Origin: a virus | Lineage: Duplodnaviria; Heunggongvirae; Uroviricota; Caudoviricetes | DNA length: 31,461 bases | Reading direction: 5' to 3' (one strand) | Virus record (IMG/VR): IMGVR_UViG_2778261696_000004 | Coordinates: 1 to 31,461 of that record | In this document: positions 1,417-14,095 of the stretch, one piece after another | Layout: each line of letters begins with the position of its first letter | How positions within the stretch are numbered: position 1 is the first letter of the stretch | Notes under the pieces: generated by a model | What the model saw: the letters and a program-made list of their open reading frames with translations, nothing else | Told to the model about the DNA's origin: nothing | Databases searched by the model: none | Translations under genes and position numbers: made by a program

Positions 1417-2448
1417 CTAATCGCCATCTTCCAGCAGGCGCACCATTGCCCCCGTTTCACTATCCAGGTTACGAATGTAGTTCATGACAATATTTACGTT
1501 GGTCCAGCCGCCAGCTTGCATGATCTCCGGTATAGAAACTCCGGCGCGGGCCATATCTCGCGCGGCACCGACACGGGCACTATGTCCAGACCAGGCCTGG
1601 TATCGCTGACCAGAGTCATCTTTTGCCCCGTAAATCAATCGGTGAGTTGCTTCAAAAATCCCTTCCAGGGCGCGAGTTGATAGCTGGCTGGTGGATGATG
1701 GCGCGGCAACACCATTTTTTCTGACGCGGCAAAACAGGTAGTTATTCGGATCATCAGCTACACCAGAGACAGAAATCCATCGCTCAACCAGTTTAGTTAC
1801 CCCCAGGCTAAGTGCCTTCTCTACACCAGCGGTGCTAACCAGCGTTTTCGTTCTGCCAATATGGATTAACATTCTCCCACCGTCAGTACGTGAGATATCT
1901 TTAACCCTGATCCTGGAAATTTCGGCTATACGTAACAGGGTGTTATAAGCAATCCCCAGAAATGCCAGATTACGTATATCCTGGCAGCGATCGCTATTTT
2001 CCATGAGTGAACGAACCTGGTCGAAATCAGTGCGTTCGAACGCCAGTGCCTGTTTTGCACGTTCACCGGCATCAACGTTTTCTTTTCGGATCCGTCGCAT
2101 GACCAGTGAAACAGCATTGCTGTCACTTGGTCGTGGCAGACCGGACCGACGATGAAGCATATTTAGCTGGCCCAAATGTTGCTGGATAGTTTTCACTGCC
2201 AGACCACGCGCCTGAAGATATAGAAGATAATCGCGAACATCTTCAGGTTCTGCGGGAAACCACTTCCGGTTATTCAACTTGCACCATGCCGCCCACGACC
2301 GGCAAACGGACAGAAGCATTTTCCAGGTATGCTCAGAAAACGCCTGGCGATCCCTGAACATGTCCATCAGGTTCTTGCGAACCTCATCACTCGTTGCATC
2401 GACCGGTAATGCAGGCAAATTTTGGTGTACGGTCAGTAAATTGGACAT
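1417..2448 (-). CDS. cre: Cre site-specific tyrosine recombinase
   Basis: 343-aa translation is near-identical to P1 Cre as recalled (MSNLLTVHQNLPALPV…GWTNVNIVMNYIRNLDSETGAMVRLLEDGD), with a few substitutions. A loxP site lies about 420 bp upstream. Confidence 0.97.
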   Translation of the reverse strand: MSNLLTVHQNLPALPVDATSDEVRKNLMDMFRDRQAFSEHTWKMLLSVCRSWAAWCKLNNRKWFPAEPEDVRDYLLYLQARGLAVKTIQQHLGQLNMLHRRSGLPRPSDSNAVSLVMRRIRKENVDAGERAKQALAFERTDFDQVRSLMENSDRCQDIRNLAFLGIAYNTLLRIAEISRIRVKDISRTDGGRMLIHIGRTKTLVSTAGVEKALSLGVTKLVERWISVSGVADDPNNYLFCRVRKNGVAAPSSTSQLSTRALEGIFEATHRLIYGAKDDSGQRYQAWSGHSARVGAARDMARAGVSIPEIMQAGGWTNVNIVMNYIRNLDSETGAMVRLLEDGD

Positions 2449-2795: not shown

Positions 2796-2866
2796 CTATT
2801 TGACCTGATAAGGTATTGAACTGTATGGATTTACAGGTAAATTGATCATGTTCAATAACCCTTAAG

Positions 2867-2900
2867 ATAACTTCGTATAATGTATGCTATACGAAATTAT
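2867..2900. other. loxP: loxP recombination site, single-base variant (ATAACTTCGTATA-ATGTATGC-TATACGAAATTAT)
   Basis: 13-bp arm, 8-bp spacer, 13-bp arm. The right arm has A at 2896 where canonical loxP has G (GAAGTTAT becomes GAAATTAT). Confidence 0.9.
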
Positions 2901-2943
2901 CAGGTCCGAAGAGGAGTTTACGTCCAGCTGCGCACAAAAATCA

Positions 2944-5819: not shown

Positions 5820-6004
5820 AATGGCAGCCTCCTTTTGCTAATTTAAGGAGCTACCGCGTGAGGTCTCAATCTCAATGGCGGTAGCACTGACTGGGTTGAG
5901 ACTACCGGCGCAAAAGGGAACCGGCCTGCCTTTCGGCAGCCCAGCCAGCACTACCATTGATCTCCGAGCTAAACGCTACGTATGGCTGTGCGATGGCATG
6001 ACAC

Positions 6005-6028
6005 AAAAAAAAGACGCTTTTGGCGTCT
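6005..6028 (-). terminator. Rho-independent terminator (AGACGC-caaaa-GCGTCT followed by a run of 7-8 T) on the minus strand
   Basis: Perfect 6-bp stem and T-run seen directly. Lies about 140 nt downstream of the operator at 6160-6176 and upstream of the icd-like SD. Confidence 0.65.
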
Positions 6029-6159
6029 GTGTCGCCTTTTGCATTATCCGGGGTCTCAATCCCGGCACCCGTTTTAATGAGGTGCCTGATAAGCATAAAC
6101 CGAAAATGCCTCAAGGCGCAAGAGGTCAGGTTCAATGTAACATCGGCAGTTAAAAAACA
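6029..6159 (-). ncRNA. candidate small regulatory RNA (c4-like antisense RNA candidate)
   Basis: ORF-poor segment bounded by a C1 operator and an intrinsic terminator. Contains hairpin CCGGG-ATTGAGAC-CCCGG (6048-6065) whose loop is complementary to GTCTCAA in the icd-like leader (5893-5906). Confidence 0.4.
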
Positions 6160-10755: not shown

Positions 10756-11119
10756 ACAATCTACGTAACGTGTCGGCGACAGAAGATACAGATATCTCTC
10801 CGGTCGCAGCCCCTACGGTAAGGTCTGCCAGTTCAGGTGAATCAAATACCTGCACCCCGTTACGGCGTAAAAATAGCAGCGCACTGTTTAGCGCGGTACG
10901 CTTATTGGCATCATTGAATATATGCCCTCTCGCTGTAGCCACCAGGTAGGTGGCGGAGACTTCGAAAAGGTCGGTGATCTCTTCGTAGGCAACTCTGGCC
11001 TGAACTCTCCCGATAATGGCCTCTGCCCTACCCGGATCTGACATTCCCGGCAGGCCGCCGTAGCGGTTTATATTCGCATCATGAAGCGCAATAAGTTCTT
11101 CCGGTGATATATGCCTCAT
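10739..11119 (-). CDS. doc: Doc toxin (Fic-fold kinase) of the phd-doc addiction module
   Basis: 126-aa translation ([22 protein letters not shown]…) matches P1 Doc as recalled. Its start overlaps the phd stop. Confidence 0.95.
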
Positions 11120-11340
11120 TATCGGTTAACCAGTTCCTTGTTGGTGGAGTCCAGGGTGTCAAACAGGGATGCAAATTCAGCATCCAGCGCCGCTTTTTTG
11201 TAGGCTTCGAAAGTAGCCTTGCTGACAATTACTGCTGGCTCACGGCCTCTGCGGGTGATTTCAACCTCTTCCCCGGCTTCAACATTGTTGAGCACTTCAG
11301 AAAGGTTGCCGCGCGCGGTACGGAAGTTAATGGATTGCAT
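11119..11340 (-). CDS. phd: Phd antitoxin
   Basis: 73 aa from the ATG at 11340 ([49 protein letters not shown]…) matches P1 Phd as recalled. The ORF track extends 2 codons further to a GTG. Confidence 0.95.
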
Positions 11341-11349
11341 AAACACCTC

Positions 11350-11370
11350 GTGTACTCGTTATGTGTACAC
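11350..11370 (-). promoter_or_regulatory. phd-doc operator: palindrome GTGTACAC (11363-11370) plus half-palindrome GTGTACTC (11350-11357)
   Basis: Two related 8-bp palindromic sites directly upstream of phd. Autoregulation of phd-doc by Phd/Doc binding to palindromic operators is established. Confidence 0.5.
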
Positions 11371-11412
11371 AATTATAAACTTCACAGGCATAAAGCACCA
11401 GCACTTTGCAGC

Positions 11413-11802
11413 TTAAATAACCGGACAATCATCAAATTCCCCACTTCGGGCATCATTGATGACATGCGTGATCACACCAAAAACAGCATTACTGCCCGTG
11501 TATCCATCGTCATCTACTGGTAACGCCTCTTTCTTCCCGGTGCTTAAATCCTCCAGGTGCTGGCGCGGATACTTTCGGTATCTCTTTATGCGATATTCAC
11601 CCTCCATAGCGCAGACAAGCAGCGAACCATCAACCGGAGTAAGCGAAGAATCAACCACCAGCAAAGCACCCTGCAATATTCCCTCACGGTGATGGCTGTC
11701 TGCCGCCCGCATGAAGTAGGTCGCTGATGGATGCCTGATTAGTTGCTGATCAAGAGAAATTCTGCTTTCAACATAATCCGCCGCAGGAGAAGGGAAGCCC
11801 AT
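11413..11802 (-). CDS. humD: HumD, UmuD'-like SOS mutagenesis accessory protein
   Basis: 129 aa with a UmuD-like C-terminal fold; a LexA box lies 20 bp upstream. Confidence 0.85.
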   Translation of the reverse strand: MGFPSPAADYVESRISLDQQLIRHPSATYFMRAADSHHREGILQGALLVVDSSLTPVDGSLLVCAMEGEYRIKRYRKYPRQHLEDLSTGKKEALPVDDDGYTGSNAVFGVITHVINDARSGEFDDCPVI

Positions 11803-11821
11803 AGCGTTTTCACCTCAATAA

Positions 11822-11841
11822 TACTGTTCATTTATACAGTA
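11822..11841. promoter_or_regulatory. LexA (SOS) box TACTGTTCATTTATACAGTA
   Basis: Perfect CTGT-N8-ACAG palindrome immediately upstream of humD and divergent from the ORF at 11977. Confidence 0.85.
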
Positions 11842-11976
11842 TACATTGAAGAGACACCTTTGGTGCAAACGCGTTACGTACATCAACCACCGCTGATGAT
11901 TTTGTGCTCTTTGCTACTATTCATCACCAACGGATCAGCGTAACCTCGTTGCCAATCAGTTAATAAGGAATTAGCT

Positions 11977-12295
11977 ATGCCTAATCGCATTCCTCTCATC
12001 TCTTAACGATATCAACGATGCGTTATATGAATACTGTGAAAAAACGAGCATCACAGATGCACCTGATGCATTTGTCGAGCTACCGGTATATCTCCGCGAC
12101 ATCTATGCAATACGAACACCGCCCGTATCGGTGATTCACATTGGCTATGTCCGCCTGTCCATCGAAGAAGATGAAGATCGTTATATCGTGCGCCACTATA
12201 CATTGGACAGAAAAGAACTTCCTAATGAATGGAACATGAGTAATTTCTACAACGGTGAATATGGCTTAAAATCCGCTAATAATTTACGGTCATAA
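11977..12295 (+). pseudogene. frameshifted or interrupted gene (ATG 11977 with AAGGA SD, stop after 9 codons; +1 frame stays open to 12295)
   Basis: A good SD+ATG opens a 9-codon ORF, while the overlapping +1 frame encodes about 97 aa with no canonical start before a GTG at 12131. Confidence 0.4.
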
Positions 12296-13157
12296 TCTAT
12301 ACAGGCATGCATAACAACAACGAGCCTATTAGCTGTCAACAACGTTATTTTCTCAAATAAGAAAAAGCAGAAAACAAATTGTTTAAGGTCACAAATTGTG
12401 GCCTTGATGGAGGAGGGAGGCTTATTGGCTATGGCTAAAAATCAAATTAGACACTTCATGTTGCTGTAGCTCATCAAGATCCGAGGCCACAAAACCTTTT
12501 CCGAAAAACTTCACAAGTAACTCACTAGCCGCATCATTGTCACCTATTACACGAAAGTCATACGGCAACGTCGCAAGTTGACGATGTAATCCTGCTGAGA
12601 AAGTCGAATCTAACAGCGCCCAGAATTCCCACCGCAGGATAATACTCGCCTCTTAATACTGTATATATGTTGTTACGATATGTTTTTCTGTCTCTAAAAA
12701 AAGATGTTAATAGAATGCTAACCATTGAAGGGGATAAAAATATACAATTCCAACAAACGTTATTTTTAACAATTTTTTTCTTTGCGTTGACTTTCCCGGA
12801 CACCTTGTCTGACCGAAGGTGCGCGAAAGCCACTTTTTCCTTCCTGAGTTATCCACAAAGTTATGCACTTGCAAGAGGGCCATTTTCTACATATTGTGGT
12901 GGCTAACAGATGAAATGAATGTAGATTAATTGAAGATAAGGAGAAAATTTGAGATGCAATCATGACGTTAATAGATAGGGTCTGCATTACAGACCCCACC
13001 CGCATCAAGGAATTAGCCGTTCCCTGATGTTTTTACGAAAACATGTGCCGTAAGCTCACGTTAACGACTTTCATTCACCGAATCCAACTATATAGGGGTT
13101 GGGTTTCTACGTCAACGTGAGCAAGTGCACCTTTACATTTGACAAGGAACCACCTGA

Positions 13158-13295
13158 ATGAACGCTTTTTTTCAGTTCCTGAGTGCATTTTTAGATGCGC
13201 CTATTATTAGCCAGATTCTGGCTATTATCCTCATCATCGTTTTGATTTTGCTTTTAAGGTCAGTAAAAAATGGAATTATGCACTGGCTTACTTAA
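13158..13295 (+). CDS. small hydrophobic membrane peptide, 45 aa (MNAFFQFLSAFLDAPIISQILAIILIIVLILLLRSVKNGIMHWLT)
   Basis: ATG with AAGGA SD 9 nt upstream; one predicted TM helix. Below the ORF-track cutoff. Confidence 0.3.
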   Translation: MNAFFQFLSAFLDAPIISQILAIILIIVLILLLRSVKNGIMHWLT

Positions 13296-13370
13296 TGTTT
13301 CAGTGAAACATTAAAATCTCCTTGATGTGGAAACAATCATTTTCTGTATGTGCTGGTGGGCACCTGTAGT

Positions 13371-13733
13371 TCAGCTTTCGTTGGCATTTAACTTCGTCTT
13401 TGCTTTCTCCACCAGCAACTTCCAGATGCCTATTTCATTAGCAGCCGCCTTGATGGCGGCATAAAAAGCATCTTGCTGATCGTAACGCTGGATCTGTTTT
13501 TTCAGTTTTGCCTCCACCAATTTAATTTCATTACGTGCTTTCTGAAGCCGCATCACCGCCCGGTTACGTCTGTTCTTGTATAGCGTGTTAATCTCTGACA
13601 ATTGCTTTAATTTACCAGCCTGACTGCGGATTATCGCCTCCCTGGCTTCTGCCGTGCGTCTCATCTGATCTCTTAAGAGTTCACCGTTTTCGATAATTCT
13701 TTCAAGGTGTTTGATGTGATCTGCAACTCTCAT
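13371..13733 (-). CDS. hypothetical protein, 120 aa, charged/coiled-coil-like
   Basis: ORF on the same strand as its neighbours; start overlaps the stop of the upstream gene (ATGA). Confidence 0.5.
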   Translation of the reverse strand: MRVADHIKHLERIIENGELLRDQMRRTAEAREAIIRSQAGKLKQLSEINTLYKNRRNRAVMRLQKARNEIKLVEAKLKKQIQRYDQQDAFYAAIKAAANEIGIWKLLVEKAKTKLNANES

Positions 13734-14095
13734 ACTTCACCCTCGCTTGTATCACCAGCGTCCACCAACGACAATAAAGCCCTGGCCATCTTATGAACCA
13801 ACAGTGCATCAATAATGCCAAGCGTATGCCCCGGCTTAATGTTTAATGCTGCCTCAAGATGAGGCCTTTCCAGACCGCTTTTCTCGGCTTGTTTATGATG
13901 ATATGGCGTAATAACGTCGCCCAAAACACGGCTAATTCTTTCTCGTAATTGCTGGGTGCCAGCACACTTGATCGCTGTATCGTGGAGACGGTTAACCAGT
14001 TCGCGATAAACATGCGGCTTAATGCGGATACGTTCACCGGTGACGCCCTTTCCTGGCGCTGGCACCGAACTACCCATGTGCGACGATGCCGCCAA
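13730..14095 (-). CDS. hypothetical protein, 115-121 aa (TTG start at 14095 or ATG at 14077)
   Basis: The ATG at 14077 overlaps the TAG of the upstream 28-codon peptide ORF (ATGGGTAG), suggesting coupling. Confidence 0.5.
   Translation of the reverse strand: MAASSHMGSSVPAPGKGVTGERIRIKPHVYRELVNRLHDTAIKCAGTQQLRERISRVLGDVITPYHHKQAEKSGLERPHLEAALNIKPGHTLGIIDALLVHKMARALLSLVDAGDTSEGEV

What the first reader, a model, noticed from the sequence alone, without database searches (positions are those of the whole stretch)
11822..12295. LexA box with a divergent gene that appears frameshifted
The perfect LexA box serves humD and possibly the divergent plus-strand gene. That gene has a good SD+ATG (11977) but stops after 9 codons, while the +1 frame continues for about 97 codons. 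This is either an inactivating mutation in an SOS-regulated gene, a sequencing indel in the homopolymer-rich 11990-12005 region, or programmed frameshifting.
Basis: seen in the sequence. Interest (0 to 1): 0.45.

Follow-up and report, generated by a model that had tools for sequence, protein, structure and literature searches.

The report
Deletion scar beside humD LexA box
The apparent frameshift is the joint left by a 623-base deletion that removed most of two small genes of unknown function next to the SOS-controlled humD gene of a P1-type phage-plasmid; it is an ordinary gene-loss scar in a region already known to be variable.

Summary
The sequence features are real. There is a perfect LexA box at 11822-11841, 20 bp upstream of humD. 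A Shine-Dalgarno site plus ATG at 11977 opens a 9-codon ORF, and the +1 frame stays open to 12295.

It is not a frameshift inside one gene. Alignment with phages P7 and SJ46 shows that the window lacks exactly 623 bp, between 11997 and 11998. The left side is the first 7 codons of the lxr homologue (upf94.2, 194 aa). The right side is codons 21-118 of a different gene, upf93.6 (118 aa). The two genes share a frame in the intact form, and 623 mod 3 = 2, so they are now out of frame.

The identical junction occurs in 9 of 5426 complete E. coli genomes, always on P1-like plasmids. It is therefore not a sequencing error. About 92 genomes carry the intact pair.

Nothing supports programmed frameshifting: there is no slippery site, and the "fusion" would join two unrelated proteins.

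At least three other rearrangements that truncate or remove these genes, and many lxr-less arrangements, occur at the same place in related elements. The humD and LexA-box unit is kept in all 80 loci sampled. lxr is reported to be non-essential, and the region is a published variable region.

Verdict: ordinary pseudogene scar, low interest.

The parts
11413..11802 (-). humD, a UmuD'-like S24 peptidase-family protein of 129 aa; intact
   Evidence: ORF. Pfam PF00717, E = 5.7e-9. Annotated humD in P1, P7 and SJ46 at the homologous position. 100% tblastn self-match.
11822..11841 (.). LexA (SOS) box TACTGTTCATTTATACAGTA, 20 bp upstream of the humD ATG and 135 bp upstream of the ATG at 11977
   Evidence: 0 of 100 shuffles give a perfect match. 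Same position as the 'LexA binding site in the regulatory region of lxr and humD' in the P1 record. The CTGT-N8-ACAG core is kept upstream of humD in 80/80 IMG/VR loci.
11838..11868 (-). Weak candidate humD promoter, TTGCAC-19 nt-TATACT; its -10 hexamer overlaps the LexA box (inferred, not shown)
   Evidence: Relaxed hexamer scan. The standard scan found no promoter here on either strand.
11966..11970 (+). Shine-Dalgarno-like AAGGA of the former lxr-type gene
   Evidence: Read. Identical in P1, P7 and SJ46 upstream of lxr/upf94.2.
11977..11997 (+). Stub: the first 7 codons (MPNRIPL) of the lxr homologue (P7 upf94.2 / SJ46 J46_0083, 194 aa)
   Evidence: Alignment of the window with L001, L002 and L003.
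11977..12006 (+). Resulting 9-codon ORF MPNRIPLIS plus TAA; codons 8-9 and the stop are out-of-frame upf93.6 sequence
11997..11998 (.). Deletion junction: 623 bp (SJ46 locus L003 2099-2721) missing; no microhomology at the joint
   Evidence: record span 1924 against 1301 query bases. The identical junction is in 9 E. coli plasmids and 7 PLSDB plasmids.
11998..12295 (+). Remnant of upf93.6: last base of codon 20, codons 21-118 and the stop. It has no start codon and lies in the +1 frame relative to ATG 11977.
   Evidence: Translation identical to SJ46 Upf93.6 residues 21-118. The first in-frame canonical start is GTG 12131, with no Shine-Dalgarno site.

Best explanation
The window is part of a P1-like (Punavirus) phage-plasmid of E. 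coli. In the intact P7/SJ46-type arrangement, the LexA box upstream of humD faces two plus-strand genes of unknown function. These are an lxr homologue (upf94.2, 194 aa) and, immediately after it in the same frame, upf93.6 (118 aa). In the lineage of this window, a single 623-bp illegitimate deletion removed lxr codons 8-194 and upf93.6 codons 1-20. That left the lxr ribosome-binding site, ATG and 7 codons joined out of frame (623 = 3x207 + 2) to upf93.6 codons 21-118. Translation from ATG 11977 therefore ends after 9 codons, and the upf93.6 remnant has no start codon. Both genes are dead. humD and its LexA operator are untouched. LexA presumably still represses humD by sitting on or next to its promoter and releases it during the SOS response. 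Shown here: the deletion, its exact end points, its presence in independent assemblies, and retention of humD and the box. Inferred: the mechanism of deletion, the lack of expression of the remnant, and LexA control itself, which rests on the P1 annotation and the consensus match.
For: - Window 11400-12000 and 11998-12700 align to SJ46 and P7 at 97-99% identity, with 623 bp of the reference missing between them. P1 homology also stops at 12000.
- The stub equals Lxr/Upf94.2 residues 1-7, and the remnant equals Upf93.6 residues 21-118 at 100% identity.
- A 56-nt junction probe finds 9 of 5426 complete E. coli genomes, all on plasmids, from several studies and sources, and 7 PLSDB plasmids. About 92 genomes have both flanks separated by the extra DNA.
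- Window 6000-30000 is 100% identical to four of the plasmids that carry the junction.
- One carrier, UTME-7, has the same junction inside flanks that differ by about 3%.
- PGAP annotates nothing in this interval.
- Other rearrangements in the same interval (L061; L095/L096; L123-type) keep humD and the box.
- lxr was scored non-essential in a P1 CRISPRi screen (PMC10695390).
- The pmgT-humD stretch is one of eight variable regions of P1-like phage-plasmids (PMC9603915). GC content falls to 0.39-0.41 there.
Against: - No reads or expression data were available, so silence of the remnant is inferred from the lack of a start codon and Shine-Dalgarno site.
- The remnant shows no amino-acid change relative to SJ46. 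That fits a recent deletion but does not by itself prove loss of function.
- The joint has no microhomology, so the deletion mechanism is unknown.
- No convincing sigma-70 promoter was found on either strand around the box, so the regulatory wiring is not demonstrated.
Confidence: 0.95

Rival explanations
1. A sequencing or assembly indel in a pyrimidine or homopolymer tract shifted the frame of one otherwise intact gene.
For: A short ORF followed by a long open +1 frame is the usual signature of a 1-bp error.
Against: The difference from intact relatives is 623 bp, not 1-2 bp. The tract has no homopolymer longer than 2. The two halves belong to different genes. The identical junction is in 9 complete assemblies from several laboratories, including one with diverged flanks.
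Confidence: 0.01
2. Programmed +1 ribosomal frameshifting joins the 9-codon ORF to the long frame and yields a functional fusion protein.
For: There is a strong Shine-Dalgarno site and ATG, an in-frame stop (TCT TAA C) at the end of the overlap, and an open +1 frame.
Against: The arrangement is a deletion joint, not a conserved recoding site. Intact homologues have two separate genes in one frame. No codon in 11977-12006 allows P-site tRNA re-pairing in +1 (CCU-C, AUU-C and UCU-U all mispair), and there is no internal Shine-Dalgarno stimulator (read). The product would be Lxr residues 1-7 plus a Upf93.6 that lacks its first 20 residues.
Confidence: 0.01
3. The remnant is still used. Either an N-terminally truncated Upf93.6 is made from an internal or non-canonical start (GTG 12131 gives 54 aa), or the SOS-driven 9-residue peptide or its transcript has acquired a role.
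For: The remnant ORF has no amino-acid change relative to SJ46 and is identical in a carrier with diverged flanks. The upstream region with the LexA box and the Shine-Dalgarno site plus ATG is intact.
Against: There is no Shine-Dalgarno site before GTG 12131 or any other in-frame start. The nearest ATG after the TAA (12018) is in a third frame. Identity is expected for a young deletion. Other relatives delete different parts of the same two genes or lack them entirely, which argues that the genes are dispensable rather than re-used.
Confidence: 0.03
4. The short form is ancestral, and the 623 bp in P7/SJ46-type elements is an insertion.
For: None specific; it is only the formal symmetry of an indel.
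Against: The extra 623 bp completes two full-length ORFs whose ends lie on either side of the joint. Full-length Lxr is present in P1, P7, SJ46 and 33 of 80 sampled IMG/VR loci. No insertion-element features or target duplication flank it.
Confidence: 0.01

Closest known systems
Phage P7 upf94.2-upf93.6 / Salmonella phage SJ46 J46_0083-J46_0084, next to humD and its LexA site
   Same: Same backbone at 97-99% DNA identity on both sides: the same LexA box, the same Shine-Dalgarno site and ATG, identical first 7 codons, and identical Upf93.6 residues 21-118.
   Different: These records carry the 623 bp that the window lacks, so both genes are intact (194 aa and 118 aa). P7 additionally has IS903 inserted at the site that corresponds to window 12550-12558.
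Phage P1 humD - LexA site - lxr - hot (AF234172)
   Same: humD, the LexA site annotated 'in the regulatory region of lxr and humD', and the lxr start are collinear with window 11400-12000 at 96.5% identity.
   Different: P1 has a full lxr (190 aa) followed by hot and no upf93.6. The window has neither lxr nor hot. P1's annotated PhumD promoter lies inside lxr, in the interval that is missing here.
Other rearrangement alleles of the same interval in IMG/VR P1-like contigs (L061; L095/L096; L123/L126/L155)
   Same: All keep humD and the LexA box and lose or truncate lxr, with or without upf93.6.
   Different: The end points differ: SJ46 coordinates 2046->2593, 2043->2848, and a homology break at 2144. 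The first two show 2-4 bp of microhomology (CC, CGTA), whereas the window's joint has none. None of these contigs has the window's junction.
humD-hot arrangement of D6/RCS47-type P1-like phages
   Same: humD and the LexA-box core are conserved.
   Different: Homology ends about 9 bp beyond the box, and no lxr or upf93.6 sequence is present at all. This is the commonest state in the sample, 37 of 80 loci.

Membership tests
Gammaproteobacterial LexA (SOS) box | 20-bp palindrome matching TACTG-(TA)5-CAGTA, with invariant CTG-N10-CAG | tested here: met
   TACTGTTCATTTATACAGTA at 11822-11841. Both arms are perfect and the spacer is A/T-rich. 0 of 100 shuffles give a match.
Gammaproteobacterial LexA (SOS) box | Overlaps or abuts the promoter of the regulated gene | tested here: inconclusive
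   Only weak minus-strand candidates overlap the box (TTGCAC-19-TATACT). The standard scan finds none on either strand.
Gammaproteobacterial LexA (SOS) box | Conserved with the regulated gene in relatives | tested here: met
   The CTGT-N8-ACAG core is at the same place upstream of humD in 80/80 IMG/VR loci, whatever lies on the other side.
Gammaproteobacterial LexA (SOS) box | Bound by LexA, with DNA-damage-inducible transcription | not testable with these tools
   Rests on the P1 GenBank annotation and on my recollection of McLenigan et al. 1999, which the library does not hold.
HumD / UmuD'-like S24 peptidase family | S24 peptidase domain in an intact ORF of about 129 aa | tested here: met
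   PF00717, 36.1 bits against a cut-off of 23.3. Collinear with annotated humD of P1, P7 and SJ46.
Lxr (P1 gp102; phrog_6164) | Full-length protein of 190-194 aa | tested here: not met
   Only codons 1-7 remain. tblastn with Lxr finds nothing in the window.
Upf93.6 (phrog_5797) | Full-length 118-aa ORF with its own start, directly after the lxr homologue | tested here: not met
   Residues 21-118 are present at 100% identity, but the start and the first 20 codons are deleted.
Programmed +1 ribosomal frameshift site (prfB type) | Slippery codon that re-pairs in +1, next to a slow codon or stop, often with an upstream Shine-Dalgarno-like stimulator | tested here: not met
   A stop is present (TCT TAA C), but UCU to CUU cannot re-pair. 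No other re-pairing codon and no internal Shine-Dalgarno site occur in 11977-12006.
Programmed +1 ribosomal frameshift site (prfB type) | Two-frame arrangement conserved among homologues, with the product being one conserved protein | tested here: not met
   Intact homologues have two separate genes in one frame. The fusion aligns only from residue 9 onward.

The most novel reading that the evidence does not exclude
Loss of lxr and upf93.6 is not neutral decay but is selected. For example, Lxr or Upf93.6 could be costly when SOS-induced, or could be recognised by a host defence. That would explain why several independent rearrangements and replacements remove these genes while always sparing humD and its LexA box. 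Alternatively, the retained SOS-side ribosome-binding site plus 9-codon ORF could have a regulatory role.
Probability: 0.05. Interest if true: 0.35.

Novelty: already known. Interest (0 to 1): 0.07.

Why it matters
It matters little for biology. The LexA box, humD and lxr are annotated parts of phage P1, the region is a published variable region, and lxr is reported to be non-essential.

The practical value is for annotation. In plasmids identical or nearly identical to this window, PGAP leaves about 1.5 kb after humD empty. This work shows that part of it is a two-gene deletion remnant that should be marked as a pseudogene or remnant, not rescued as a frameshifted or recoded gene.

There is also a small evolutionary point. 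In P1-like elements, the conserved SOS unit is humD plus its operator. The divergent 'LexA-regulated function' lxr is absent or broken in more than half of the loci sampled.

Tried and rejected
- **Homopolymer indel.** Rejected on reading the sequence, which has no homopolymer, and on the 623-bp gap.
- **Programmed frameshift.** Looked for re-pairing codons in the overlap and for conservation of the two-frame layout; found neither.
- **Repeats at the deletion end points in intact SJ46.** No direct or inverted repeat aligns the two end points, only a shared TCTC nearby. The deletion mechanism therefore stays unknown.
- **Function of the lost genes.** Pfam, NCBIfam, PADLOC, PHROGs and PDB sequence searches gave only 'unknown function' families or sub-threshold hits.
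- **Promoters.** The standard scan found none at the box. A relaxed scan gave only weak minus-strand candidates.
- **Rfam.** Nothing lies in 11000-14000.
- **Junction in IMG/VR.** An exact 38-mer found nothing.
- **Literature.** The papers by McLenigan et al. 1999 and Lobocka et al. 2004 are not held in the library.
- **Independent LexA box for Lxr.** I asked whether Lxr carries its own LexA box elsewhere. The one diverged homologue without humD (L057) has none.

Full report
**1. What is in the sequence**

- humD (129 aa, Peptidase_S24) lies at 11413-11802 on the minus strand, downstream of phd and doc.
- Twenty bases upstream of its ATG is TACTGTTCATTTATACAGTA (11822-11841), a perfect-armed LexA box.
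- The strict pattern TACTGT-N8-ACAGTA occurs once in the 31-kb window and in none of 100 shuffles. The looser CTGT-N8-ACAG is at chance level.
- On the plus strand, AAGGA (11966-11970) is followed by ATG 11977, nine sense codons (MPNRIPLIS) and TAA at 12004-12006.
- The +1 frame is open from 11975 to the stop at 12293-12295.
- The only inaccurate detail is 'homopolymer-rich'. 11990-12005 is TTCCTCTCATCTCTTA, with no run longer than two.

**2. What it really is**

A megablast of 11400-12700 against phage records hits P1-like phages.
- P1 itself aligns only to 11400-12000.
- P7, SJ46 and three other records cover the whole query, but over 1924 record bases instead of 1301.
- Direct alignment places the break between window 11997 and 11998. 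SJ46 locus bases 2099-2721 (623 bp) are absent.

In P7 and SJ46 this interval holds two annotated genes.
- upf94.2 / J46_0083 is 194 aa and is the homologue of P1 lxr, 'LexA regulated function'.
- upf93.6 / J46_0084 is 118 aa, starts immediately after it, and is in the same frame.

The window keeps lxr codons 1-7 and upf93.6 codons 21-118, the latter at 100% amino-acid identity. Because 623 = 3x207 + 2, the second piece lies in the +1 frame relative to ATG 11977.

It gives matches only from residue 9 onward, all to Upf93.6, in 7 phage records. There is no single-frame homologue, because it was never one gene.

**3. Real or artefact**

A 56-nt probe centred on the joint was short enough that intact alleles fall below the E-value limit.
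- It finds 9 of 5426 complete E. coli genomes, all on plasmids: strains EC12, EC15, EC18, XH987, XH989, THO-010, L2_E1649, E1624 and UTME-7.
- It also finds 7 PLSDB plasmids.
- It finds nothing in IMG/VR.
- Window 6000-30000 is 100% identical to four of the nine junction-carrying plasmids.
- UTME-7, from beef in the USA, carries the identical joint and an identical 11932-12309. Its flanks differ by about 3% and its downstream gene content is different.

The allele is therefore real. It has either persisted for some time or moved between backbones by homologous recombination; that choice is an inference. About 92 further genomes contain both flanks separated by the extra DNA. PGAP annotates nothing between humD and the next gene in carriers.

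**4. Mechanism and consequences**

- The joint has no microhomology: left ...CCTCTC|GATCC, right ...CATGA|ATCTCTT. No repeat in the intact sequence brings the ends together. The event is an illegitimate deletion of unknown mechanism.
- Translation from ATG 11977 stops after nine codons.
- The remnant has no canonical start before GTG 12131, which would give 54 aa and has no Shine-Dalgarno site. The nearest ATG after the stop (12018) is in the third frame.
- I therefore infer that both genes are dead.
- For +1 frameshifting there is no codon in the overlap whose tRNA could re-pair one base downstream. The site is also a recent deletion joint rather than a conserved signal.
- humD and the box are untouched.
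- Only weak minus-strand promoter candidates overlap the box (TTGCAC-19-TATACT). There is none on the plus strand.
- LexA control of humD is therefore inferred from the consensus match, the P1 annotation and conservation. LexA control of the plus-strand gene is unproven.
- P1's annotated PhumD promoter lies inside lxr, in the interval missing here. If that distal promoter were the real one, humD expression would be affected. I consider the proximal, box-overlapping promoter more likely, but this was not tested.

**5. Wider context**

In 56 IMG/VR loci found with Lxr, almost all have humD and the box 152-154 bp upstream of the lxr ATG. One 66%-identical Lxr (L057) has neither.

An unbiased sample of 80 loci found with HumD shows the following.
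- The CTGT-N8-ACAG core is upstream of humD in 80/80.
- Full lxr is present in 33.
- No lxr at all is present in 41. Most of these (37) are the humD-hot arrangement, in which homology ends about 9 bp past the box.
- Remnants of three further alleles occur in 6.

Two of those alleles are clean deletions with microhomology.
- L061: SJ46 2046->2593, microhomology 'CC'.
- L095/L096: SJ46 2043->2848, microhomology 'CGTA'.

The conserved unit is thus humD plus its operator, and the genes on the other side are repeatedly lost or replaced. This agrees with published work.
- pmgT-humD is one of eight highly variable, low-GC regions of P1-like phage-plasmids (PMC9603915). GC content here falls to 0.39-0.41.
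- lxr scored non-essential in a genome-wide CRISPRi screen of P1 (PMC10695390).

**6. What the lost genes are**

Both fall in PHROG families of unknown function (phrog_6164 and phrog_5797). They have no significant Pfam, NCBIfam, PADLOC or PDB-sequence match.

**7. Comparison and novelty**

- The locus works like any LexA-operated SOS gene, with umuD-type regulation.
- It is a member of the P1 humD/LexA-site module.
- It fails membership as an intact lxr or upf93.6 gene and as a programmed-frameshift site (see the membership table).
- Every component is already annotated in P1, P7 or SJ46.
- The particular deletion allele is present but unannotated in public plasmids.

It is an ordinary pseudogene scar: already known in kind, and of low interest.

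**8. Verdict**

- Observation: confirmed.
- Interpretation: partly supported. The genes are inactivated, but by a 623-bp two-gene deletion rather than a frameshift, a sequencing error or recoding.
- Confidence in this explanation: 0.95.
- Interest: 0.07.

Noticed in passing
window 2819-2838: A second LexA-type box, AACTGTATGGATTTACAGGT, lies between loxP and cra/cre. The homologous P1 site is annotated as a LexA binding site that overlaps promoter P2coi.
   Followed up: partly
window 2869-2902: loxP site next to cre (1417-2448, minus strand). The cre-proximal arm is canonical, but the distal arm reads TATACGAAATTAT, a G-to-A difference from the canonical loxP arm as I remember it. Whether Cre tolerates it was not examined.
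   Followed up: no
window 5874-5961 and 6007-6085 (minus strand): Rfam matches above gathering score to C4 antisense RNA (75 bits) and isrK (59 bits), as expected for the P1 immI region.
   Followed up: no
window 27543-27615, 29050-29122, 29128-29200 (minus strand): Three tRNA genes, found by the Rfam tRNA model at 65-75 bits.
   Followed up: no
window 12296-13370, especially 13158-13295 (+): About 1 kb of low-GC sequence (0.39-0.41) with no gene called by PGAP in identical or near-identical plasmids. It holds a 45-aa, very hydrophobic ORF (MNAFFQFLSAFLDAPIISQILAIILIIVLILLLRSVKNGIMHWLT), which SJ46 annotates as hypothetical.
   Followed up: no
window 12550-12558: This is the site where phage P7 carries IS903. 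The 9 bp are present on both sides of the element in P7, as a target duplication.
   Followed up: partly
L061 2990-3005; L095/L096 2995-3005; L123/L126/L155 about 3628: Other independent rearrangements remove or truncate lxr, with or without upf93.6, and keep humD and the LexA box. Two are deletions with 2-4 bp of microhomology.
   Followed up: partly
L057 3001-3570: A 66%-identical Lxr homologue sits in a different neighbourhood, with no humD and no CTG-N10-CAG box within 400 bp upstream. The Lxr family is therefore not always LexA-linked.
   Followed up: partly
L005 (E. coli UTME-7 plasmid) 2451-2650 against window 11800-12000: Same deletion junction, but with a C-to-A change in the spacer of the LexA box (window position 11829), about 3% divergence in the flanks, and a type I R-M gene downstream. 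This suggests that the allele was transferred between backbones.
   Followed up: partly
L001 3381-3407 (P1), within the interval deleted at window 11997/11998: The sigma-70 promoter 'PhumD' predicted in the P1 record lies inside lxr, about 480 bp from humD, and has no counterpart in the window. A proximal promoter overlapping the LexA box seems more plausible, but neither has been shown.
   Followed up: no
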